DNA from: a virus
Direction: 5' to 3' (one strand)
IMG/VR virus record: IMGVR_UViG_3300045988_062714
Location: 36,078 to 100,077 of that record
DNA length: 64,000 nt
Shown: one piece after another, positions 3-39,627 of the stretch
Layout: each line of letters begins with the position of its first letter
Numbering within the stretch: the first letter of the stretch is position 1
Position numbers and translations under genes: made by a program
The notes under the pieces: generated by a model
The model's input: the letters and a program-made list of their open reading frames with translations, nothing else
What the model was told of the DNA's origin: nothing
Database searches by the model: none

Positions 3-888
3 CGTTCTGGGCTTCCAGAATCCTATTTAGCGGCTATATGTGCAGACTTCTAGGAAAGACTTGGCAGATTTCCCCACCTTGATGAAATTAAGGGAGTAGA
101 TTCTTCAAATTATTTGACAGAAGAGCTAAATATTAAACGTGGGATTACGAAGGAATAGTAGATTTATAGGCTTACTGGGAAAAATGATTTACAATCTTCA
201 TAGGTATGGATAAATGATAACTTTAGAGACCTAGAAGTGGAGTTTTCTCCATTCTTTGGCGATATTAAGGTATATATTACTCATAGACCTATTACTCAAG
301 AAATCTCTACTCCTGTAAGTCATTCTAAAATAAGCGATACGCTAGTTGTAGAGGAGATTGTAAGTAAATTGCGGGACGTATATGGACTACCAGTAGAATC
401 TGTTATAACAGAGGATTTAAATGAATATAAAGAATCTCCAATTTTTTCGGAAGGTGGGATAACTTATGTAAATGCAGATGCTGTTACCCTAGATACCCCA
501 GTAATAGAGCTAATTCCTCTGTTAATTACTTCACTCCACGGTACAGAACTTTACGATAAGCTAATTAAAGATAACGAAAAAGAATTTTCTAAAGAATTAA
601 GAAATAGAATAATAGATAAAAGCGAAAAATTATAGTTTCTTCCAACCAACGTATAGTATGAGTTAATGTATAATATGAAGCGTGTATTAGACTCTATTCT
701 AATGGGGGAATCTAGTATTAGAGATATTAATGACGATATATTATTCAACAGTACTTTGAGGTCACTTGCTAGAATAGTTAACTCTAAAATCGATGTTTCT
801 AATTCTAATATACTAAGTCTGGATTTGGAAGAAAAGCACAAATAGTTAATGGAAGAAGGGAAGGTAACTGAATACTGTCATGTCTGAA
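3..888 (+). CDS. Late-module protein, N-terminally truncated by the window. Frame 3 is open only if TAG is sense. In-frame TAG at 51, 156, 159, 201 and 633; real stop TGA at 886-888.
   Basis: Frame 3 from base 3 to 888 has no TAA or TGA but five TAG codons. The stop overlaps the ATG of the next gene (ATGTCTGA). Confidence 0.5.
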
Positions 889-3800
889 TGTATATATAAA
901 TTTAAAGACCACGAATTTAGTAGTAAAAAGGAGTATGAAAACTTTCTACTACAAAAAGGAGACGAACTATACGAAATCTACGGGGATTTGGTATTTAATG
1001 CTTTAGATAACGTAATAACTTAGGAAGCTTTAAAGAAAGTTAAAGCAGAGGCTCAAAAGCATGTTAAAGCTTATGCTGAGGCTAAGAAATTATACTAGGA
1101 TGGAGAAGATAATCTAGAATTTAAACGCCCTTATATTGGTGTAACGGAATTTCTCGCGGATCTTACTAATTCTAAAGACTAGCTTTTAATGCCTTCTTTT
1201 AGAGAATTTGAATATTGGAGAAGACGTATTAAGGACTGGAAAGATCCCACTAAAGGATTTAATAATGACGAAATAGAACTATTCGGGAAGAATGTAACCG
1301 TTACCGATAATGTTAGCGAAGACTAGCTGAAGGAGTATTTAGATAACTTTGATAATAATTCAGAAACTACCAGTTAGACTTTAGGATTAATCAAACAAAT
1401 GAAGGATAAGTGGAAAGCACAGGGCGAATTAGGTACAGAGATCCATAGTATCTTAGAAATGCTTTTCAGAACTACAAAGGCTGGATTACTTATCACCCAG
1501 AGTGACAAAGCCATTAAGAGCTATATAAATTTACAGTATAAAGACAAAAAATTAAAGCAGGATACTATAAATAGTATAATTAAGTATGGAAAAAAGTTAC
1601 ACGAAGATTTAATTAATACATATGGACAGAATCTAACTTTCTTTCCTGAGTTTAAAGTAGTTACCAAGTTGGGATATGAGATCGAAGGGAAAGGAGATAC
1701 CATCTTAGGAAAGATAGACCTATTGGTAGTTGATGGGGATGGGTATGCTCATGTTATTGACTATAAGACTTCCCCTAAAGATTCTTTTGATTCTGCGAAA
1801 CAGAGAGCTTTTTGGTATCAGATGGGATTATATCATAGAATGATTGAGAATGCCGGAATTAGAGTTAACAGTCCATCACCTAAAGTTATTGTTGCTCCTA
1901 TAAAAATGCATAATTTCAGGTAGGAGGGAGACACTTGGGTATTTGATACTATTTCAGCTAGGTTAGGAGAGTCTACTTTGGAAGATATAACTACTAGAGC
2001 AACATTAAATGAGGTTGCTGCTAATATTGATGAGTTTATTCCTCCTACCCCAGTTATTGATTTAACTCCCAAGGAAATTGTAACTAATGTTTCGTAGGTA
2101 ATGGAGTATTCGTTTCCTAGTATAAATATGAGTAAGACTTGGGGAGACGAAGAAATAAAATCTATGATGGAAGGAAATATTGAGTAGGACCCAGAGTCTA
2201 AGAAATGGGTATTTAAAACTGAAAACTCTAAGATTCCATATACTGCTAACACTTAGGAAGAACTTTTTGAAAAAGTTAAAAAGTTCTATTAGGAAACTCT
2301 CCCAAAAAAACGCAGAGATATGGTAGCCTCTGTGGAAATGGCCTTGAAGAAAGGCATAAAAGAAAATACTAGTCTAGTTCCTTTACCAAAATAGGGAAGT
2401 ATTAATGTTAAACAAGGAGCTTCCGCAGAATGGTTCTAGAATCTAATGGGTAAGTACTGTAGGAACTATTATGAAATTATCGAAAATGAAGCAATAAAGG
2501 CTTATGGGGTTATTCTACTAAGAAACAAGCTCAACGGGTAGATTGATATATTGAAAATTACTACTGACAATCTAGATTATTCTCATAAGTTTAATAAATC
2601 TAGTAGAAGATAGTTATTAACTGGGGCATTTGAAGTAGATAGTGTATAGGCTAGGAAACCTGGTTCATTGGCTATGAAAGCTACCAATGGAAACATACAC
2701 TTGATGGAGACAATGGCAATCCTAAACTGTTTGCCTGAAATAACCTCTAAAGAAGGAATTATTGGAAATATACTTGTAGCTAATCCCCATTCTCTACAGG
2801 GTACAGCGGCATCAAACGAGGAATTAGTCTACAATTTCGGAGAGTTAGTATCCCACATTGATGGATTCTAGAATAATATTAAGAACATTAAATTTGCGAA
2901 TAAAGTAGAATTGGCTAAAAATAAGCTTAGAGAAGTATTAGAACTTGGTGCTAGCACACACTGGGAAGAGGATAAGTATAAGTTTGTAGGAAAGTATAAG
3001 GATTTATATACATAGTTGGATGAAGCAGTCTCTACTAATGACAGAAGAGATATTCTTAGAAAATTGGAGGCAATTAGGAAAAAATTAGAAGAGCCTAATG
3101 GAGGTTTAAGAACTGAGTAGATAACATCGTTAGACACTTATAGTGAGGAGGGAAATGAGTAGAGAACTTTATATAATCATATAATGTTAGCTATTGCTGA
3201 AATATAGGGAGTGCAGTTTAGACAGCAGACTAAAGACAACGAGAAGTATCTTGAGAGCATGAATATATTTAATAACGGGGTTAAATCTCTGATGTTAGAT
3301 AATCCAGGAAATCTAGATAATGCTACTCTAAATAAATTAACCTCTCTTATTACTGAAGCTTATTAGAACACTCGTGAGGATATGATGAGGGAGACTCCAA
3401 TTATTAGAGAGCTAGTAGAGGAACTAAAGAAAAGCAAAGGGTTTGGAAAGCTATCAGAAATGACTGTTGGCAATTAGGCAAGCTTGTATAGAAATATGAT
3501 AGAGTATAAAGATGGCGATATTCTATTTAAGAATCCCTGGAGCAACAAATTCTCTGGTACTGAACAGGAAAAGAAATTTCTTAAATATGCTCTTACTAAG
3601 ATAAATTAGGATAGGTTTGGAACTGATGAATTGGATGAAATGATAACTACAGAAGATGTTAGATTCTTTAGAGTTCCATTGGCTGTAGGAAGTTTATCCT
3701 CACAAGCTTCTTAGTTAGGAAGTATTGCTGAAGCATTCAAGAAGAGATTAGTTAGTAGATTGAGTCCAAAAAGATGGTGGGAAGAAACACAGAAATAGTT

Positions 3801-5589
3801 TCTAGGAGTATTCTCAGATGTCTAGAATCCCTCTTCTGAAGGAGAATTATTTCAGATGAATAATATGTTTGATGCTGGAAAGAATACAGAGTAGAGACTA
3901 GAGAAGATTGCAGAGAAGGGATATGATTATTTTGAGAATAATCTAGAAACTTTGTTATTAAAGCATATATTTGCTTACTCTACTAAGAAAAACGTTGATT
4001 TAATTATGCCAATGGCTAAAGCATCAATGATCCATGTAATCACTTAGGGATAGTTAACTAATAAAAAGTTTACTAATACTGCCAATTATATCACAGATTA
4101 TATAAAATCTCATATTAAAAACGAATCTTTAATTCCTGAAAATTAGTAGAATTTTAATGCTATTGTTAGCAGAATTAAAAATGCGGCATCATTCTTGGTG
4201 CTGGGATTTTCTCCTATTTAGTATGGCTACTAGATGATATAGGCTCTTTGGACCGATATAAGGCTAATGTATTAGGGAAGAGGAGATGAAAACACTCCTT
4301 TCACCTTTGAGAATTTTGCATTTGCTTTTAAAGAAGTTTATAGAGAACTATTTACTCTTGGAGGAAAGCCTACTAAATGTAGCCTATTAAATGATATGTT
4401 TGCTATTAACGATAGAGATATGAATACTTATGCAGAACAGACTAAATCAGATAGGTATGGAATATTCAATATGTCTAATATTGCTTTTCACTGCACCAGC
4501 AGACCAGATTATTACAGTAGAATGTCTATATTTGTCACTTAGTTAAAATAGGATGGCAGTTATGATGCCTATGAAAAAGTTGGAAACAAACTAGTATATG
4601 ATTGGAAAAAGGATAAACGCTTTGAAGCATATGCTAATGGAAGGACTGATGACCCCAAATATAACGAACAAAAAGGGTTATATTACGCTATAGCTGAGTA
4701 GTTAGAAATAGAACATGCTAAAAATGCTGACGGTAGTTTATTCTAGATCGGACAACCTTTACCTAAATCTCATACAAACCAGCAGATTGAGAGTTTCAAA
4801 TCGTTAGCTGATGATATTTATGGTTACTATGCCCACGAAAAAAAGGCAATGATTCATTCCTATACTCTCGGAGCCTTGTGGATGCAAATGAGAACTTTCT
4901 GGTCTGGTAAGAAAAACCAGTATTTGGGAGGATAGGGTATCAAATTAAAAGGACGCTATGCTCAGTAGAAGGATGCTAATGGTAATTTGTTATACCTCAC
5001 CGAAGAAAATGGCAGAATGATACCAACTACAGAAAATACTGGAGTTCCAGTAGTAAAGTGGGAGGGAGAATGGTAGGAAGGAATTATGCTAACCTTATCA
5101 TAGTTAATATCTGGAACCTTTCAAGGAGATGGATTAAAGCATACTTTCGAAGATATGTGGTATAATGAGGATGAGAAGCTTAGAAATCTCTATAGAGCCA
5201 ATTTACGACAAATCTAGTATGATTTACTAATGTTCTTTATTGTTGGTTCTCTTGTCACTGGAACATTAGCCGATTGGGATGATGAAAACATGAAGAAAGC
5301 TAAGGATTCTAGAGATATAGACGATGCAGCTATAGCAGCTGCTGCTCATATGGCATGCAAGATGGTAAGTTCGTCTTTTTTAGACCTTAACTTTATTGAA
5401 TCTATTGGAGGACCACTAGTTTATTGGCAACCAATGTCATTTAGTTATTTTTCTAGAAGAGCCGAAGATATATATAATATAGCATTTGGGGATACTTCTT
5501 TTACTGATGCTCTTATTAGAATGTCTTCATTAACAAATAATACTAAGATATTTTGGAATACTTTACTTCCTGAAAGGGAGTAGGAATAA
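877..5589 (+). CDS. Giant late protein of about 1570 aa, probably virion-associated, with about 45 in-frame TAG codons read as sense. Contains a PD-(D/E)XK-like segment (IDLLVVDGDGYAHVIDYKTS).
   Basis: I read frame 1 codon by codon from 877 to 5589. It has zero TAA or TGA and many TAG, and terminates at TAA 5587-5589 just before a hairpin terminator. It joins track ORFs 1399-1923, 2668-2871 and 5230-5583 in one frame. Confidence 0.6.
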
Positions 5590-5640: not shown

Positions 5641-6159
5641 TTACCAAGTATTGTAATCAGTTATGTTCTTACTCTCCTTACATACATTACATTTAACAGA
5701 TTTACCTATACCTATTCCACTATGTGTAAATGTTACTGAACATCCACACGCCTTTATTCCCTTATGTAGTTCATAATGTTGTTTTTGAAATTCGGCATAT
5801 GCATTTGCCTCCTTCTCATTCAAACTATAAGAGATAGCACTAGGTTTAAATATATTAGATATACAAGCAGTACCATCAGTACTAATAACAAATCCAGAGG
5901 AAGTTCCTTCTTCCTTTTTGTCCTCGTTAATCTGCCGAATCCTTTCTTTGCAAATATGGATAATCTTCTCGTAATCCATTATTCTAGCATCCTCTTTAGA
6001 CTTACCAGGTTCTTCCTTAGTTCTCAGTATCCTCTTTACAATATCCGCATCCCATGGATTCAAATTATATTCTCTCCAAATATCCCAAGGTTGTATTTTA
6101 TGCTTGCTGTAATTAGAATTTCCTACATTATAGCTTCTAATGTCTTCATTCGTCTCCAT
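5641..6159 (-). CDS. Hypothetical protein with a C-terminal Cys-rich (zinc-ribbon-like) tail.
   Basis: Intact ORF. ATG at 6159; the track M at 6162 is a TTG. C-terminal CGCS...CNVCK. Confidence 0.45.
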   Translation of the reverse strand: METNEDIRSYNVGNSNYSKHKIQPWDIWREYNLNPWDADIVKRILRTKEEPGKSKEDARIMDYEKIIHICKERIRQINEDKKEEGTSSGFVISTDGTACISNIFKPSAISYSLNEKEANAYAEFQKQHYELHKGIKACGCSVTFTHSGIGIGKSVKCNVCKESKNITDYNTW

Positions 6160-6347: not shown

Positions 6348-6608
6348 TTAATTACCGTTTATAATTGATATAATAGTGCCCAAAGAAACAGCACCTACTG
6401 TTCTCTTAACTTCTTCATCTTGCTCGTTATAATATATCAAAACTGGAACATTTCGTATACCTCTTGCATTCGCAAGTTCTTCCTCTTCGTCTACATCATG
6501 CTTGACAATTTCTATTCCAGTAAGCTGTTCTAACGTCCTGTCTAGTACTTTGCATGGTCCACACCATGATGCTCCAAACTTTTCAATTCTTGTAATCATT
6601 TTAATCAA
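6348..6608 (-). CDS. trx: Thioredoxin/glutaredoxin-like redoxin (NrdC/NrdH-type hydrogen donor for the RNR).
   Basis: FGASWCGPCK active-site motif (WCGPC), 86 aa. Confidence 0.75.
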   Translation of the reverse strand: MIKMITRIEKFGASWCGPCKVLDRTLEQLTGIEIVKHDVDEEEELANARGIRNVPVLIYYNEQDEEVKRTVGAVSLGTIISIINGN

Positions 6609-7492
6609 ATAGGCTTAGTTCTTGACTTATCTGTACTCTGTTATTTACGTACTTAATTGGTTCCGTTATTTCTCCAGAAATAAGTTCAGAGTTAGGATTT
6701 TCTGGTATTCTTTTAGCCAGATTATGATCTATAGTAGCATAACAATATTTACATCCCATCTTACAAGTATCGTATTCTCCTATTCCGTAGGTCTGAACGC
6801 TACAAGTACATCCACTAGTAATAGAAGCTTTAGTCGGCTTTATGTTAAGCCCAAATATCTTAGGACTCATACATCCTTCAACATATACCCCAGGATATTC
6901 CTTTCCTAATCTACATATCTGTAAATGTAGATTATTCTCGGATATAGCAATAACTCCCATTCTCATAGTAATCCAGTCCTTTTCCTCTTCAGTGAAAGGA
7001 ATTATTTCTGGCATATTAGCTAATGTGTGGGAATATGGAGTAATAAAACTAAATATACATCTACTTACATACTTGGACAATTCTTTAGCCATTTTCTTGA
7101 AAGAATCTACTAACCATTCGCAAGATATTTTGTTAGTCTTAAGTAAAGGGTCAAACCTCCACAAAACATTTTCTTTGCCTACTATCTTACTCAACTCTTT
7201 TAAAGTCTTTATACTTTCATCTACCGATGGAACATTTGGCTCTATGTCAGTTCCATATGGAGTAATAGTATATACACTTATACTTGGAATTGATTTCTTG
7301 AATATATGGTAATATTTTAGAATAGTCCTTAGAACAGAAGGCTATACAGTCTACATCCTTTAAGGAGTATGCTGTAGTAACCTTAGTTCTAGGATTCTGG
7401 GAATAAATAAAGTCCTTATGTAACAATTTATCTACCAGCCAATCAGTATAACAAGCTACTATGTCAGTTCTTAAGCTGATGTTTAGAATCAT
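6601..7492 (-). CDS. DUF1848-like radical-SAM-related protein with a C-terminal CxxxCxxC cluster. It is split over two frames, by a frameshift, an overlapping-gene arrangement or an authentic indel.
   Basis: Track ORF 7247-7492 has an ATG start. Track ORF 6601-7194 starts at TTG, and its frame stays open upstream to 7341, overlapping the first ORF in a +1 frame. The C terminus carries TCKMGCKYC. The combined length of about 295 aa fits a single protein. Confidence 0.4.
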
Positions 7493-7772
7493 TTATTTTT
7501 TCATTATCCTCGCTTAAAATAACTAATCTGTCTGCTAGTAAATTAGCTACCTGGTGGCGTACAGAGTCTGTAGTCCAATATCTCATTTGCGTTTCGATAT
7601 GTCTACGTACAAAAGTATCCATATCGAAGTCGTCAAAAGTTTTCTTTAACATAAGCTCAGCTTGAGACTGCACTGCCTCTTTAAGCCAAGCTCTTATATC
7701 ATCCTTGGTGATGCCCAATTCATTATGAATGTAATTCTTGAACATCATCCATTTATCATTCTTTTCTGACAT
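7464..7772 (-). CDS. Hypothetical protein.
   Basis: Intact 102-aa ORF with an ATG start, tightly packed with its neighbours. Confidence 0.4.
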   Translation of the reverse strand: MSEKNDKWMMFKNYIHNELGITKDDIRAWLKEAVQSQAELMLKKTFDDFDMDTFVRRHIETQMRYWTTDSVRHQVANLLADRLVILSEDNEKINDSKHQLKN

Positions 7773-8428
7773 TAGATATGAAAGTCTATTACTGAAATTT
7801 CAACATCATCTCCTACACTGTCTAGATACTCTTTAAACTCCTTGTTCCAAACATCTTCGTCTTTGTCATTTGTAGTCATAGCCCACCAACCCATACTAGC
7901 AGACTCATGCCAATCTCCGTCCTCTGTTACAAAACAGAATGGAATTCTATCTTTTTCCAACATAGCATCCCAGTCTACTTCTTCTTTGGTAGCAAAGATG
8001 GCATTGAGGGGTTCTCCGTCTTCTCCTTTTTCCTTAAGAAGTAACCATGCTCCCCATCTACCTCCTTCACAATACCAATCCCACTTAGAGTCAGGATTAT
8101 ATGTAGACATCAAGTTCTCTTCGTCATCAATTTCATATCCCCAGTTCTTAGCTTCTTCCCAGGCATCTTCATATGAGATAAACAACCCTTTCTCTATGAT
8201 TTTATTAGCTCTTTCAAGCTGTTCCTTTTCCCATTCGGTGGTAGGATTCTTATACTTATCTGCTAGCTTAATGGCATACTCATAGTTATCAGCGTGTCTG
8301 GTTTTAACCTCATCAATGGCTTCATCCTTTGTATATCTAACATATTGTTCTACCTCCATGTTTTCATCATAGGGTTCTAACAATGTTTCAACATTACTTC
8401 CGAATACTAGTCCTACAAAATGGCTCAT
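7772..8428 (-). CDS. Hypothetical acidic protein.
   Basis: 218-aa ORF. Its start overlaps the neighbour stop (ATGA). Confidence 0.45.
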   Translation of the reverse strand: MSHFVGLVFGSNVETLLEPYDENMEVEQYVRYTKDEAIDEVKTRHADNYEYAIKLADKYKNPTTEWEKEQLERANKIIEKGLFISYEDAWEEAKNWGYEIDDEENLMSTYNPDSKWDWYCEGGRWGAWLLLKEKGEDGEPLNAIFATKEEVDWDAMLEKDRIPFCFVTEDGDWHESASMGWWAMTTNDKDEDVWNKEFKEYLDSVGDDVEISVIDFHI

Positions 8429-8910
8429 ACTATATATTTTTTAACAATTTCTGAAATCATCTTACCGTCTGCTTGAGGAAATTCTGATTTCAAATATTTA
8501 ATCGCATTTCCCATTTCTTTCTTTGGAATTTGGAAACTAACCATATCTATTGAATTTTCTTCATTATAGAAATCTTCAATAAAGCCTTTTCCCTCACACC
8601 ATATTTGTAATGCAGAATGTATGTCTGGCTCATTTACAGGCTCAGGAAGCAACTTTTTTAGTACTTCCAATTCATCCCTATATTCAGTTGCCAAGTCCTC
8701 TCTACCAGCCTCTATAAAGCTAGAAATACTGTCCTCTAATTTCTTACACATTTTAGAAATAAGCTGTATCTCAGCTGCTTCATCATAAGGTTTAGCATTT
8801 TTAGCAGTTTGTAGAATCTGAATTTCTGCCTTCAGATTCTTATATGCACGAAGTTCTACTTGATTTTTAGACTTCATTGCTTTAGCTATACATTCGTTTA
8901 TATTTATCAT
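8425..8910 (-). CDS. Hypothetical protein.
   Basis: 161-aa ORF with a 4-nt start/stop overlap. Confidence 0.45.
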   Translation of the reverse strand: MININECIAKAMKSKNQVELRAYKNLKAEIQILQTAKNAKPYDEAAEIQLISKMCKKLEDSISSFIEAGREDLATEYRDELEVLKKLLPEPVNEPDIHSALQIWCEGKGFIEDFYNEENSIDMVSFQIPKKEMGNAIKYLKSEFPQADGKMISEIVKKYIV

Positions 8911-9320: not shown

Positions 9321-9476
9321 TCAATAAGAGACATCCTGAAGAGTAGCTATATCGGTTTCCCTATCTAGCATGGCTCGTATAGATACTTTTATCTCTTCCG
9401 GAGTCATGTATGCAGTCTCTTTTCCATCAACGGTAAGGGATGTGCAAATACATCCGTCAGTATATTCTATTTTCAT
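9321..9476 (-). CDS. Small ORF of 51 aa, absent from the >=60-aa track.
   Basis: ATG (9476) through TGA in an otherwise empty 240-nt gap. Sequence MKIEYTDGCICTSLTVDGKE... Confidence 0.3.
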   Translation of the reverse strand: MKIEYTDGCICTSLTVDGKETAYMTPEEIKVSIRAMLDRETDIATLQDVSY

Positions 9477-37455: not shown

Positions 37456-39627
37456 TTAATTTACTTCTTTAGAATATGTTCTTTTCTCAGCTTCTATTCT
37501 TCTATCTTTACCAAAAGCAGTGATAGGTCTTAGATAGCCAATAATTCTGGTATATTGAGTAATATGTTCACTCCCACATTTAGGACATACCTTAATGGGA
37601 GCTTTCACAATATGTTTACAATCCTCGCACTTACTATTAGGAATATTGAACGTGAAGTAATTAGTTCCTTGCTGAATAGCAAAGTCTATAAGCTTCAAGT
37701 ATTGCTCCTTAGATAGATGTTCCTCCAAGTTAATGTGGGCTGCACTACCTCCATCTGTATACTGATAAGTCTGCCTTCCATGAAGTATAAACTTATCTAA
37801 TACAGATGTGTCATCATGGGCATTATAGAAATAACTATTGTATAGATTCCTATCTTCAGGAACCCAATAGCCATCTGCTTTATCCCATTTATAATTCTTA
37901 CCACCAAGTCCCTCTGCTGGAACAACTTCAGAATTAAATAGGAAAGGTCTTTTCTTATCGTAGATGGAATGAATCTTATTCTGCTCCTTAATAGTTCCGA
38001 GGATTAGTTGCAAGAACTCGAAATACTCTGGATTATTAGATACTTTCAGTCCTAGGAACTCAGCAGCTTCATTCAGACCATTTAGCCCAATAGTACTATA
38101 TAGGTCTTTGATGTTTATATAACCTCCATTTGAAGAAGCAAACATCTTCTTATCCTCCCACTCATAGAGCATGGTCTTATAGGTAATGTGATACTTGTAT
38201 ACTCTCTCTAGAATATCTATTAGATATTTTTTGAGTAGGGCAACATTATCTTTACAATGCAAGAGATTTTTGTCTCCATCTTCACTCCACCAAGTAGTTT
38301 CTTGTCTAGCCCAATCTTGGACAATTCTGTTAATATTCAGAGTAATAACATTACAAGAACCTGTCTTTACACCAGTCATACCAGAGGTAGGACTAAATGT
38401 ATTTTCAGCTAATTCATTACGAAGACGACAACAAGATGCAAGACTATCTGCACTGTCTGAGATATAGGTAAAGAAACTATGACCTTGAGAATACATTTCT
38501 GCACATAAGTCTTTATAGTTCTTATCTATAATGTCTTTACCGTCATGCACCATAGCAAAGGTTTCTACTGGAAATGTCAGAACTTGTTTCAAGCGAAGTT
38601 TATTAAACCAAGACATGAACAATCTCTGTAAAGTATCAATTGCTACCCATTCTGGCTTAGTTCCGTCTGGATAGTAAAATTCTCCAAATAGAGATTCAAA
38701 ATAGGTCTTATCGTAGTACGAAACATTAGTAAAGGGAGATTGATAACTTCTGTTTCCAGCAGGTTGATTAATTCCCCAAACAAACTGTTTAAAAGCTTTA
38801 AGGATAGAGTCTTCGATAGTTCTCTTAATAAGAGAATGTTCCGAAGTACATATACAGTCGAGCTTCTCGTACCACTTTTCTCCGTATTCAGCAATAATAT
38901 AATAGTTAAGTGCAATAAAATAGCTACCTACAGCAACTGCTCCTTTACATTGAGAGGACAATAGAAATACTAAGTTAGTAACTTGTCCACTGAATGACTG
39001 CAAATCATTAGGAGGGCCAGGAGTAACTCCATCAATATTACCTACTCCCTCTAACATTAGGGGGTATAACGAGACTGCCATACAATACTGTTTAAGTACT
39101 GACGTAGAAGCCTCATCGTGGGTATAAATAATATGACTGTCTAGGTCTTTAGAATATTGAGAAGAGAGTTCGGGATAAAGAAGCTTTAATTTCTTCTTCA
39201 TACGATAGCGCTGAATTTCTCTGTTCTCGCGCTTTCTATCTTCACTCTCTAATGTAGCAACGTTCTTAGATACAACATTAGCATTTCCATCTGTTTCAGA
39301 TGAAGTAGCTGCATTTTCGGAACTATTAATATAGTTATCTTGATAACTAATCTTAGCTATGATTTCTCTAAGTCTAGATTGTTCACTTCTATACTGAGAA
39401 TATGCTGAGGCTACATCATCGTAACCATAGTCCCTCAAGGTTTCTATTACTACGTCCTGAATCTCTTCTATAGTAATGCCGTCCCATAAATGCATATCAG
39501 CCACCATAGCTGTAATGACTTCTTTATTTTCTTCAGGACAGCAAGCATTAAATGCTTTAGATATTGCTTCTACTATCTTATTACCGTCAAATTCCTGTAA
39601 ACTTCCGTCTCTCTTTACTACTTGCAT
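37456..39627 (-). CDS. nrdD: Anaerobic ribonucleoside-triphosphate reductase NrdD (class III).
   Basis: 723 aa. C-terminal zinc ribbon CEDCKH...CPKCG plus glycyl-radical motif TRIIGYLRP. Confidence 0.8.
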   Translation of the reverse strand: MQVVKRDGSLQEFDGNKIVEAISKAFNACCPEENKEVITAMVADMHLWDGITIEEIQDVVIETLRDYGYDDVASAYSQYRSEQSRLREIIAKISYQDNYINSSENAATSSETDGNANVVSKNVATLESEDRKRENREIQRYRMKKKLKLLYPELSSQYSKDLDSHIIYTHDEASTSVLKQYCMAVSLYPLMLEGVGNIDGVTPGPPNDLQSFSGQVTNLVFLLSSQCKGAVAVGSYFIALNYYIIAEYGEKWYEKLDCICTSEHSLIKRTIEDSILKAFKQFVWGINQPAGNRSYQSPFTNVSYYDKTYFESLFGEFYYPDGTKPEWVAIDTLQRLFMSWFNKLRLKQVLTFPVETFAMVHDGKDIIDKNYKDLCAEMYSQGHSFFTYISDSADSLASCCRLRNELAENTFSPTSGMTGVKTGSCNVITLNINRIVQDWARQETTWWSEDGDKNLLHCKDNVALLKKYLIDILERVYKYHITYKTMLYEWEDKKMFASSNGGYINIKDLYSTIGLNGLNEAAEFLGLKVSNNPEYFEFLQLILGTIKEQNKIHSIYDKKRPFLFNSEVVPAEGLGGKNYKWDKADGYWVPEDRNLYNSYFYNAHDDTSVLDKFILHGRQTYQYTDGGSAAHINLEEHLSKEQYLKLIDFAIQQGTNYFTFNIPNSKCEDCKHIVKAPIKVCPKCGSEHITQYTRIIGYLRPITAFGKDRRIEAEKRTYSKEVN

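What the first reader, a model, noticed from the sequence alone, without database searches (positions are those of the whole stretch)
6601..7492. DUF1848-like radical-SAM-related gene split across two frames with an ATG-TAG-x-x-TAG opening in the second frame
ORF 7247-7492 has an ATG start and 81 aa. ORF 6601-7194 starts at TTG and ends in CKMGCKYC. The two overlap in different frames. The second frame stays open upstream to 7341 and, if TAG is read through, reaches ATG TAG ACT GTA TAG at 7356. The summed length of about 295 aa and the C-terminal CxxxCxxC cluster match a single DUF1848-type protein. Three explanations are possible: a +1 programmed frameshift, a sequencing or assembly indel (pseudogene), or a second example of an amber-gated start embedded in an overlapping gene.
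Basis: partly seen in the sequence, partly recalled or inferred. Interest (0 to 1): 0.6.

Follow-up and report, generated by a model that had tools for sequence, protein, structure and literature searches.

The report
Phage DUF1848 gene broken by 8-bp deletion
A gut-phage gene for a radical-SAM-like enzyme of unknown function is split here because one copy of an 8-base tandem repeat was lost; this is an ordinary, naturally circulating knockout allele, not a programmed frameshift or an amber-gated start.

Summary
On the minus strand, ORF 7492..7247 (81 aa) and the frame open from 7341 to 6601 are the N- and C-terminal parts of one Pfam DUF1848 protein.

The cause is now known. Near-identical phage contigs carry a single 299-aa ORF whose DNA reads GTG-TATACTAT-TATACTAT-TACTCC. 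The window has only one TATACTAT (7272..7265). This 8-bp slipped-strand deletion shifts the frame by +1 inside the invariant Y-T-I-T motif.

The same allele occurs in at least 7 other independent assemblies made with SPAdes, MEGAHIT and Logan, so it is not an assembly error. At least four other frameshift lesions and several large microhomology deletions hit the same gene in the same lineage. The gene is therefore decaying, or being selected against, in a very common human-gut phage of about 190 kb.

The phage does recode TAG: the adjacent ORF has 45 in-frame TAGs. That motif is only the +1 reading of conserved codons K-D-V-D-C-I-A, and intact alleles have it too.

There is no slippery site, and no homolog conserves the split.

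The intact protein models confidently as a radical-SAM-like barrel with a C-terminal CX3CX2C. Interest is low to moderate.

The parts
7247..7492 (-). N-terminal fragment of the DUF1848 gene. Codons 1-76 are authentic, followed by 5 out-of-frame codons (Y-S-I-W-N) and TGA at 7249..7247.
   Evidence: Pfam PF08902 positions 1-81, E 3.7e-17. Identical to residues 1-76 of the intact 299-aa relatives.
7265..7272 (-). The single remaining TATACTAT unit. Intact alleles have two perfect tandem copies here (TGT ATA TAC TAT TAT ACT ATT ACT = C I Y Y Y T I T). Loss of one unit (-8 nt) shifts the frame by +1.
   Evidence: DNA alignment of the window with L002-L013 and L036-L045. The N{0,24} pattern scans returned only 33-nt (1-copy) and 41-nt (2-copy) matches.
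6601..7272 (-). C-terminal 223 codons of DUF1848 (Y77 to D299, plus the TAA stop), now in the +1 frame relative to the start codon.
   Evidence: Pfam PF08902 positions 60-262, E 2.9e-47. Identical to the relatives' residues 77-299.
6601..7194 (-). Mechanical TTG-start ORF of 197 aa inside the C-terminal part. It is not an independent gene.
   Evidence: The exact sequence is P0150, listed in 89 blocks of the public collection, always downstream of a lesion in the N-terminal part. AAAAGAG abuts the TTG with no spacing.
7342..7356 (-). ATG TAG ACT GTA TAG, the +1-frame reading of codons K45-A51 of the real gene. Only on the 8-bp-deletion allele does it start a 251-codon ORF when TAG is read as Gln.
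   Evidence: The same bases are present in intact alleles. Code-15 gene callers produced P0002, P0003 and P0136, all beginning MQTVQPSV....
6742..6765 (-). CKMGCKYC, the CX3CX2C cysteine cluster (C246, C250 and C253 of the intact protein).
   Evidence: These cysteines are invariant in 73 homologs.
7464..7772 (-). Upstream 102-aa gene of unknown function whose end overlaps the DUF1848 start by 29 nt. It is intact in the window but broken in 4 of 28 relatives.

Best explanation
The window carries a naturally occurring loss-of-function allele of a phage DUF1848 gene.

**Ancestral gene.** The ancestral gene is 299 codons long. At codons 74-79 it contains a perfect tandem duplication, TATACTAT-TATACTAT.

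**Mutation.** Replication slippage removed one unit. After codon 76 the ribosome then reads Y-S-I-W-N and stops at TGA 7249..7247. The remaining 223 codons lie in the +1 frame and have no credible start of their own.

**Population context.** The allele is heritable and common in a very widespread human-gut phage of about 190 kb, where it coexists with the intact allele. It is one of many independent lesions of this gene and of the overlapping upstream 102-aa gene. This pair is therefore dispensable, or selected against, in that lineage.

**Intact protein.** The intact product is a single-domain enzyme with a radical-SAM-like partial barrel whose CX3CX2C iron-sulfur motif sits at the C-terminus. 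Its substrate is unknown.

**Shown versus inferred.** Shown: the deletion, its exact site, its recurrence across assemblies, the other lesions and the fold. Inferred: slippage as the mechanism, loss of function, and dispensability or counter-selection.
For: **The split is one 8-bp deletion**
- Both pieces match consecutive parts of PF08902. The rejoined protein scores 225.7 bits over profile positions 1-262.
- 11 of 12 IMG/VR loci have one 299-aa ORF reading ...KYKCIYYYTITPYGTD....
- The only difference at the junction is one versus two copies of TATACTAT.
- 72 homologs at 39-50% identity are continuous proteins of about 300 aa. Y77, T78, I79 and T80 are invariant exactly at the deletion site.

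**The allele is real and common**
- The same deletion is in L013, L015, L020 and L039-L042. These are SPAdes, MEGAHIT and Logan assemblies of different runs.
- The window's exact 197-aa ORF is indexed in 89 blocks of the collection.

**Other lesions in the same gene, all on the same 0-SNP haplotype**
- del4 TTTA at nt 82, in 5 contigs.
- del8 TCCCAGAA at nt 91.
- ins1 at nt 130.
- del1 at nt 351.
- An extra +GG in L015.
- Large microhomology deletions or gene fusions: P0004-P0007, P0010, P0015, P0017, P0020.

**Lesions are concentrated in this gene pair**
- In loci not selected for a lesion, DUF1848 is broken in 5 of 28 and the upstream 102-aa gene in 4 of 28.
- The nine other neighbouring genes are broken in 3 of 193 gene copies. 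Fisher p = 1e-4; per-base binomial p = 0.006.

**Fold of the intact protein**
- The AlphaFold model has pLDDT 90.3 and pTM 0.89. Residues 1-78 supply strands 2-5, 28-32, 39-43, 49-54 and 73-78 of the barrel.
Against: - No reads are available for the window itself, so its own allele is supported only by identity with other assemblies.
- Loss of function is inferred from truncation, not measured.
- The C-terminal part is still perfectly conserved in the deleted alleles (0 SNPs). This is expected for a very recent lesion, but it does not by itself prove non-function.
- Code-15 gene callers do find a 251-aa ORF on this allele, and the phage does decode TAG.
- The enrichment statistics rest on about 30 loci and count contigs that share ancestry.
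Confidence: 0.86

Rival explanations
1. Contingency or adaptive-loss reading, which elaborates the best explanation rather than excluding it. The short tandem repeats in the 5' third of the gene act as mutational hot spots. Knockouts of DUF1848 and the 102-aa gene then arise repeatedly and are positively selected, for instance because the product is sensed by a host defence or is costly in some hosts.
For: - At least 5 independent frameshift lesions against 0 SNPs in the 900-bp gene on one haplotype.
- Lesions are enriched relative to neighbouring genes.
- Both the del8 and del4 alleles occur on several flanking haplotypes, and the four-gamete test fails within 281 bp.
- In unbiased loci, lesions are confined to the 0-SNP haplotype: 5 of 12 against 0 of 16 for the other haplotypes (Fisher p about 0.007).
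- DUF1848 proteins occur in defence contexts: the PADLOC model RTasDUF1848 matches at E 3e-25, and PMC9226505 reports an association with the UG25 reverse transcriptase.
Against: - Two-copy repeats are weak hot spots and effectively one-way. No 3-copy allele was found with N{0,24}.
- Frequent recombination in this phage population explains the multiple backgrounds equally well; flanking mosaicism is evident in intact alleles too.
- Relaxed constraint alone would give the same pattern.
- The sample is small and partly non-independent.
Confidence: 0.25
2. Amber-gated truncated protein. On the deletion allele, translation starts at ATG 7356, reads TAG 7353 and TAG 7344 as Gln once the phage's suppressor is active, and yields a 251-aa late-expressed DUF1848 variant.
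For: - The ORF exists.
- The phage recodes TAG: 45 in-frame TAGs in 868..5589.
- Automated code-15 callers annotated exactly this ORF on many contigs, for example P0136 on 14 contigs.
Against: - The ATG-TAG-x-x-TAG string is the +1 frame of conserved codons. It is present unchanged in intact alleles, where it is a dead end.
- It joins the C-terminal part only on the del8 allele, not on the del4, ins1 or del1 alleles.
- The product lacks invariant residues N4, R8, T9, D10, W18, N33, P34, C53, S54, K55 and Y57, and four barrel strands.
- The gene lies in the standard-code replication block, whose genes carry no in-frame TAG.
- AAAGG abuts the ATG with no spacer.
- Deleted alleles accumulate further frameshifts (L015, P0009).
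Confidence: 0.04
3. Programmed +1 ribosomal frameshift that joins the two frames into one functional protein.
For: The second frame is +1 relative to the first, and the two overlap by 95 nt.
Against: - The split is not conserved. Sister genomes 0-2 SNPs/kb away and all distant homologs are unsplit.
- The split is created by a simple repeat-unit deletion.
- The overlap (GCC TTC ... TAC TCC ATA TGG AAC TGA) has no prfB- or antizyme-like shifty codon before the stop. The P-site tRNAs (Asn on AAC, Cys on UGU) cannot re-pair in +1 (sequence inspection).
- Any shifted product would still lack 2-3 residues of strand 73-78.
- Other alleles break the gene in other ways and other frames.
Confidence: 0.02
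4. Sequencing or assembly artefact in this contig only.
For: The window has a second private 8-bp deletion at about 9331-9336 that also breaks a small gene. This could hint at a contig-specific problem.
Against: - The DUF1848 deletion is identical in at least 7 other contigs from other samples and three assembler families.
- Assembler k-mers (up to 127-141 in the MEGAHIT contig names k127/k141; about 31 for Logan, from general knowledge) span the whole 18-nt repeat.
- More than 25 contigs assemble the 2-copy form without trouble.
Confidence: 0.03

Closest known systems
Pfam PF08902 (DUF1848), annotated by IMG as 'DNA repair photolyase'; PADLOC model RTasDUF1848 (partner of UG25 reverse transcriptases, PMC9226505)
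   Same: Both fragments and the rejoined protein match the family profile end to end. All invariant residues and the C-terminal CX3CX2C are present. The length, 299 aa, is typical.
   Different: Here the gene is interrupted by an 8-bp deletion. It sits in a phage replication and nucleotide-metabolism block, not next to a reverse transcriptase. No member of the family has a demonstrated function.
[not shown]
   Different: The cysteine motif lies after the barrel (residues 246-253) instead of at its N-terminal start. Sequence identity is 5-14%. There was no Pfam Radical_SAM (PF04055) hit at E <= 0.01. SAM binding and cleavage are untested.
Slipped-strand mispairing at short tandem repeats (frameshift pseudogenes; contingency loci of Haemophilus and Neisseria)
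   Same: Loss of exactly one unit of a perfect in-ORF tandem repeat switches the gene off. The copy number is polymorphic in the population. A second repeat in the same gene, (TTTA)2, shows the same behaviour.
   Different: There are only two copies, no expansion alleles were seen, and reversion is unlikely. It looks like one-way decay rather than a reversible switch.
Programmed +1 frameshifting (prfB/RF2 CUU-UGA-C; antizyme UCC-UGA)
   Same: The downstream frame is +1, and a stop codon closes the upstream frame.
   Different: There is no conserved shift site, no conservation of the split in homologs, and the split is explained by a recent deletion.
TAG-to-Gln recoded gut phages (genetic code 15; bioRxiv 10.1101/2021.08.26.457843, PMC9523058)
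   Same: The same genome has a late-gene block saturated with in-frame TAG: 45 in one ORF against 30 CAA+CAG codons.
   Different: The intact DUF1848 gene contains no TAG and ends in TAA. The amber codons at 7353 and 7344 are out-of-frame by-products.

Membership tests
Pfam PF08902 DUF1848 | Profile HMM score above the gathering threshold (30.5 bits) | tested here: met
   63.4 bits for the N-terminal fragment, 162.1 bits for the C-terminal frame and 225.7 bits for the rejoined protein.
Pfam PF08902 DUF1848 | One continuous domain of about 260-300 aa in a single ORF | tested here: not met
   In the window the domain is split over two frames. It is continuous in L002-L012, L046-L048 and 72 homologs. 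The window therefore holds a disrupted member.
Pfam PF08902 DUF1848 | C-terminal cysteine cluster CX3CX2C plus upstream conserved cysteines | tested here: met
   C231, C233, C246, C250 and C253 are invariant in A1. CKMGCKYC lies at 6765..6742.
Radical SAM superfamily | Partial TIM-barrel fold shared with solved radical SAM enzymes | tested here: met
   [not shown]
Radical SAM superfamily | CX3CX2C at the start of the barrel, and a match to the Radical_SAM profile (PF04055) | tested here: not met
   The motif is at residues 246-253, after the last barrel strand. No PF04055 hit appeared at E <= 0.01. The only related hit was a marginal one to TIGR04470, E 0.0036.
Radical SAM superfamily | [4Fe-4S] binding and reductive cleavage of SAM | not testable with these tools
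   This needs biochemistry.
Programmed +1 ribosomal frameshift | The two-frame arrangement is conserved among homologs | tested here: not met
   Close and distant homologs are single ORFs.
Programmed +1 ribosomal frameshift | A shift-prone codon with +1 re-pairing, next to a slow codon or stop | tested here: not met
   Inspection of 7341..7247 found none. The last codons are TCC ATA TGG AAC TGA.
Phase-variable contingency locus (slipped-strand mispairing) | In-ORF tandem repeat whose copy number varies among isolates and sets the frame | tested here: met
   2 versus 1 copies of TATACTAT, and 2 versus 1 copies of TTTA.
Phase-variable contingency locus (slipped-strand mispairing) | Reversible ON/OFF switching (expansion as well as contraction; long repeat tract) | tested here: not met
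   Pattern scans allowing 0-24 extra bases found only 1- and 2-copy alleles in 22 collection contigs, 12 viral and 10 metagenome. The tract has only two units.
Code-15 (TAG=Gln) recoded gene | In-frame TAG codons inside the conserved coding sequence | tested here: not met
   The intact 299-codon ORF has no TAG and stops at TAA. The genome itself is recoded elsewhere.

The most novel reading that the evidence does not exclude
DUF1848 and its overlapping 102-aa partner form a module that is repeatedly and independently knocked out in one globally distributed lineage of a TAG-recoded gut phage. The knockouts arise through microdeletions at short repeats and microhomology fusions. They would be favoured because the product is a liability on some hosts, for example as a trigger of a host defence or a costly radical-SAM DNA or nucleotide-modifying activity. 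This would be a natural escape-mutant series pointing to the function of an uncharacterised radical-SAM-like family.
Probability: 0.2. Interest if true: 0.5.

Novelty: already known. Interest (0 to 1): 0.25.

Why it matters
For annotation, the two ORFs should be called as one disrupted DUF1848 gene. They are not two genes, not a recoding site, and not the 251-aa 'MQTVQ...' protein that code-15 gene callers have already deposited in public collections.

The case is also a warning. In stop-codon-recoded phages, reading TAG as sense everywhere can turn pseudogene debris into plausible-looking ORFs.

The population pattern is a modest lead. Many independent knockouts of this gene and its upstream partner occur in an extremely common gut phage. 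That offers an entry point for asking what DUF1848, a radical-SAM-like family without a known function, does and when it is dispensable.

Tried and rejected
**Searches that gave little**
- PHROGs had no family for DUF1848 or for the 102-aa gene.
- The PDB sequence search gave only insignificant hits, E 0.075.
- The literature search found three papers that mention DUF1848, of which two were listed and neither is functional. The one read gives only an association with the UG25 reverse transcriptase. The zeta crAss-like phage paper does not mention this gene or frameshifts. I did not establish that the window belongs to that group.
- There is no tRNA, and so no suppressor, in the window.
- The INPHARED phage collection holds only short unannotated fragments of this phage: MT837177 and MT836281.

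**Questions left open**
- I tried to decide between recurrent mutation and recombination using flanking haplotypes. All four gametes are present for both the del8 and del4 alleles, but the flanks are mosaic in intact alleles as well, so the test is inconclusive.
- I considered that retention of the C-terminal part in every deletion variant means selection for that part. I rejected this as ascertainment. Only C-terminal-containing products rank high in the search, and lesions also occur in the C-terminal half (P0123, P0133, P0163, L015, L023).

Full report
**1. What is in the sequence**

The feature is on the minus strand. ORF A runs 7492..7247 (ATG, 81 aa). A second frame, +1 relative to ORF A, is open from 7341 to the TAA at 6603..6601. 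Its first canonical start is the TTG at 7194, giving 197 aa.

ORF A matches Pfam PF08902 (DUF1848) positions 1-81 (E 3.7e-17). The second frame matches positions 60-262 (E 2.9e-47). The string ATG TAG ACT GTA TAG is at 7356..7342 in the second frame.

Two details of the finding need correction:
- CKMGCKYC lies at 6765..6742, 46 residues before the end of the ORF, not at its end.
- The two listed ORFs do not overlap. Only their open frames do.

**2. The cause of the split**

A search of IMG/VR with a rejoined protein returned 12 loci. Eleven encode one uninterrupted 299-aa protein...INSKYKCIYYYTITPYGTDIEPNVP....

At the DNA level these read AAGTG-TATACTAT-TATACTAT-TACTCC. The window, and L013, read AAGTG-TATACTAT-TACTCC. 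The window therefore lacks one unit of a perfect 8-bp tandem duplication. The remaining unit is at 7272..7265. Eight bases lost equals a +1 frame change.

The two-copy form is ancestral. In an alignment of 73 homologs (39-50% identity, all continuous proteins of about 300 aa), Y77, T78, I79 and T80 are invariant, and they are encoded across the repeat.

**3. It is a real allele, not an assembly error**

A pattern allowing 0-24 bases between the flanks found only 33-nt (one-copy) and 41-nt (two-copy) matches.

One-copy contigs are:
- IMGVR_3300045988_060658
- OHQB01000579
- OPLD01001490
- four of the ten contigs retrieved through the window's exact 197-aa ORF: ERZ16021074, SRR32260069, SRR24705346 and ERR13326264

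These come from different samples and from SPAdes, MEGAHIT and Logan assemblies. The 197-aa ORF sequence is indexed in 89 blocks of the collection.

**4. The gene is hit again and again**

I compared all loci with the intact reference (L012, gene 3001..3900). The following alleles were found:

| Lesion | Position in gene | Loci |
|---|---|---|
| del8 TATACTAT | nt 221 | 8 contigs, including the window |
| del4 TTTA, one unit of (TTTA)2 | nt 82 | 5 contigs |
| del8 TCCCAGAA | nt 91 | L044 |
| ins1 T | nt 130 | L038 |
| del1 C | nt 351 | L051 |
| three deletions (6, 10 and 5 nt) | nt 511, 535 and 613 | L023 |
| additional +GG, on a del8 allele | nt 610 | L015 |

The protein database also holds large microhomology deletions:
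- In-frame deletions: INSKY|VSRC between two SKY, and ITPY|SHT between two ITPY.
- Fusions of the 102-aa, 218-aa or a UDG-like upstream gene to the C-terminal third.

Other products are truncated in the C-terminal half (P0123, P0133, P0163).

In loci not chosen for a lesion:
- DUF1848 is broken in 5 of 28.
- The upstream 102-aa gene, which overlaps the DUF1848 start by 29 nt, is broken in 4 of 28.
- The nine other neighbouring genes are broken in 3 of 193 gene copies (Fisher p = 1e-4; per-base binomial p = 0.006).

All frameshift alleles sit on the gene haplotype that is identical to L012: 5 of 12 broken, against 0 of 16 for haplotypes with two or more SNPs (p about 0.007).

Both the del8 and del4 alleles are found on several flanking haplotypes. 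This means either recurrent mutation or recombination. The flanks are mosaic in intact alleles too, so I cannot tell which.

**5. The amber question**

The phage does recode TAG. Window 868..5589 (+) is a 1573-codon ORF with 45 in-frame TAGs, against 11 CAA and 19 CAG. Window 3..887 (+) has 7 more. Public gene calls give a 1569-aa product there.

Several points argue against a function:
- The ATG and both TAGs are the +1 reading of AAG GAT GTA GAC TGT ATA GCC (K45-A51).
- The same bases occur in all intact alleles, where that frame dies after 36 codons.
- Only the del8 lesion connects this ORF to the C-terminal part.
- The product would lack 11 invariant residues and four barrel strands.
- The gene lies in the standard-code replication block, which holds DNA polymerase, NrdD, NAMPT, ligases and helicases.

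I treat the motif as a coincidence that code-15 annotation turns into an ORF.

**6. No programmed frameshift**

The split is absent from sister genomes that differ by 0-2 SNPs per kb, and from all distant homologs. The overlap region ends ...TAC TCC ATA TGG AAC TGA, with no shift-prone codon. Other alleles break the gene in other frames.

**7. What the intact protein is**

With the 73-sequence alignment, AlphaFold2 gives pLDDT 90.3 and pTM 0.89: a beta/alpha barrel followed by a cysteine-rich tail.

The CX3CX2C motif (C246, C250, C253) lies after the barrel rather than at its start, and no Radical_SAM Pfam hit is obtained. I therefore describe the protein as working like a radical SAM enzyme, without filing it as a canonical member.

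Other annotation:
- IMG calls a bacterial homolog 'DNA repair photolyase'.
- PADLOC has a model for DUF1848 proteins that accompany UG25 reverse transcriptases (E 3e-25).
- The substrate is unknown, and no functional literature exists.

**8. Verdict**

This is a genuine, common, slipped-strand knockout allele of a known but uncharacterised family, in a very widespread gut phage. The neighbouring protein is indexed in 2511 blocks, and contigs run to 186-192 kb.

The mechanism is ordinary. The only lead of wider interest is the concentration of independent knockouts in DUF1848 and its upstream partner.

Noticed in passing
window 868..5589 (+) and 3..887 (+): A 1573-codon ORF has 45 in-frame TAG codons (CAA 11, CAG 19), and a neighbouring ORF has 7. 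This is a TAG-recoded (code-15-like) late block directly abutting the standard-code replication block on the minus strand. Public gene calls give a 1569-aa product with a PDDEXK_1 domain. The window holds no tRNA.
   Followed up: partly
window ~9331..9336 (-): A second 8-bp microdeletion, private to the window (GGATGTAT|GGATGTCT becomes GGATGTCT). It splits an 80-aa ORF (MKIEYTDG...CECCGDWISNYTLEI) that is intact in L002, L012 and L013.
   Followed up: partly
window 7464..7772 (-) and relatives L002, L013, L020, L040, L052: The 102-aa gene overlapping the DUF1848 start is itself disrupted in several relatives: 1-nt indels in L002, L020 and L052, and CAA to TAA at codon 37 in L013. L040 carries the same T at window 7664, and its gene is called as 36 + 62 aa. 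It may be a functional partner of DUF1848. It has no family match except a marginal PADLOC QatB hit (E 0.007).
   Followed up: partly
L036, L043, L046, L053 (between the 66-aa gene and the next gene; corresponds to window ~6100..6150): A 180-aa HNH_3 endonuclease gene is present in some relatives and absent in the window and others. This looks like a homing-endonuclease presence/absence polymorphism.
   Followed up: no
proteins P0004-P0007, P0010, P0015, P0017, P0020 (relatives of window 6601..8428): Large deletions at 3-5-residue microhomologies (SKY..SKY, ITPY..ITPY, EWEK/EEKDW). They delete the middle of DUF1848 or fuse upstream genes, including a UDG-like gene, in frame to its C-terminal third.
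   Followed up: partly
window 6348..6608 (-), 8425..8910 (-), 37456..39627 (-): DUF1848 is flanked by a thioredoxin and a YqeY/GatB-like gene. The same block encodes an anaerobic ribonucleotide reductase (NrdD), NAMPT, RNA ligase, DNA ligase and a thymidylate-synthase-like protein, which indicates an anaerobic nucleotide-metabolism context.
   Followed up: no
L003-L008 versus the window, ±3 kb around the gene: The flanks of these relatives differ from the window by about 60 SNPs per kb and many indels. The DUF1848 gene itself differs by only 3-10 SNPs in 900 bp. The gene region is much more conserved, or more recently exchanged, than its surroundings.
   Followed up: no
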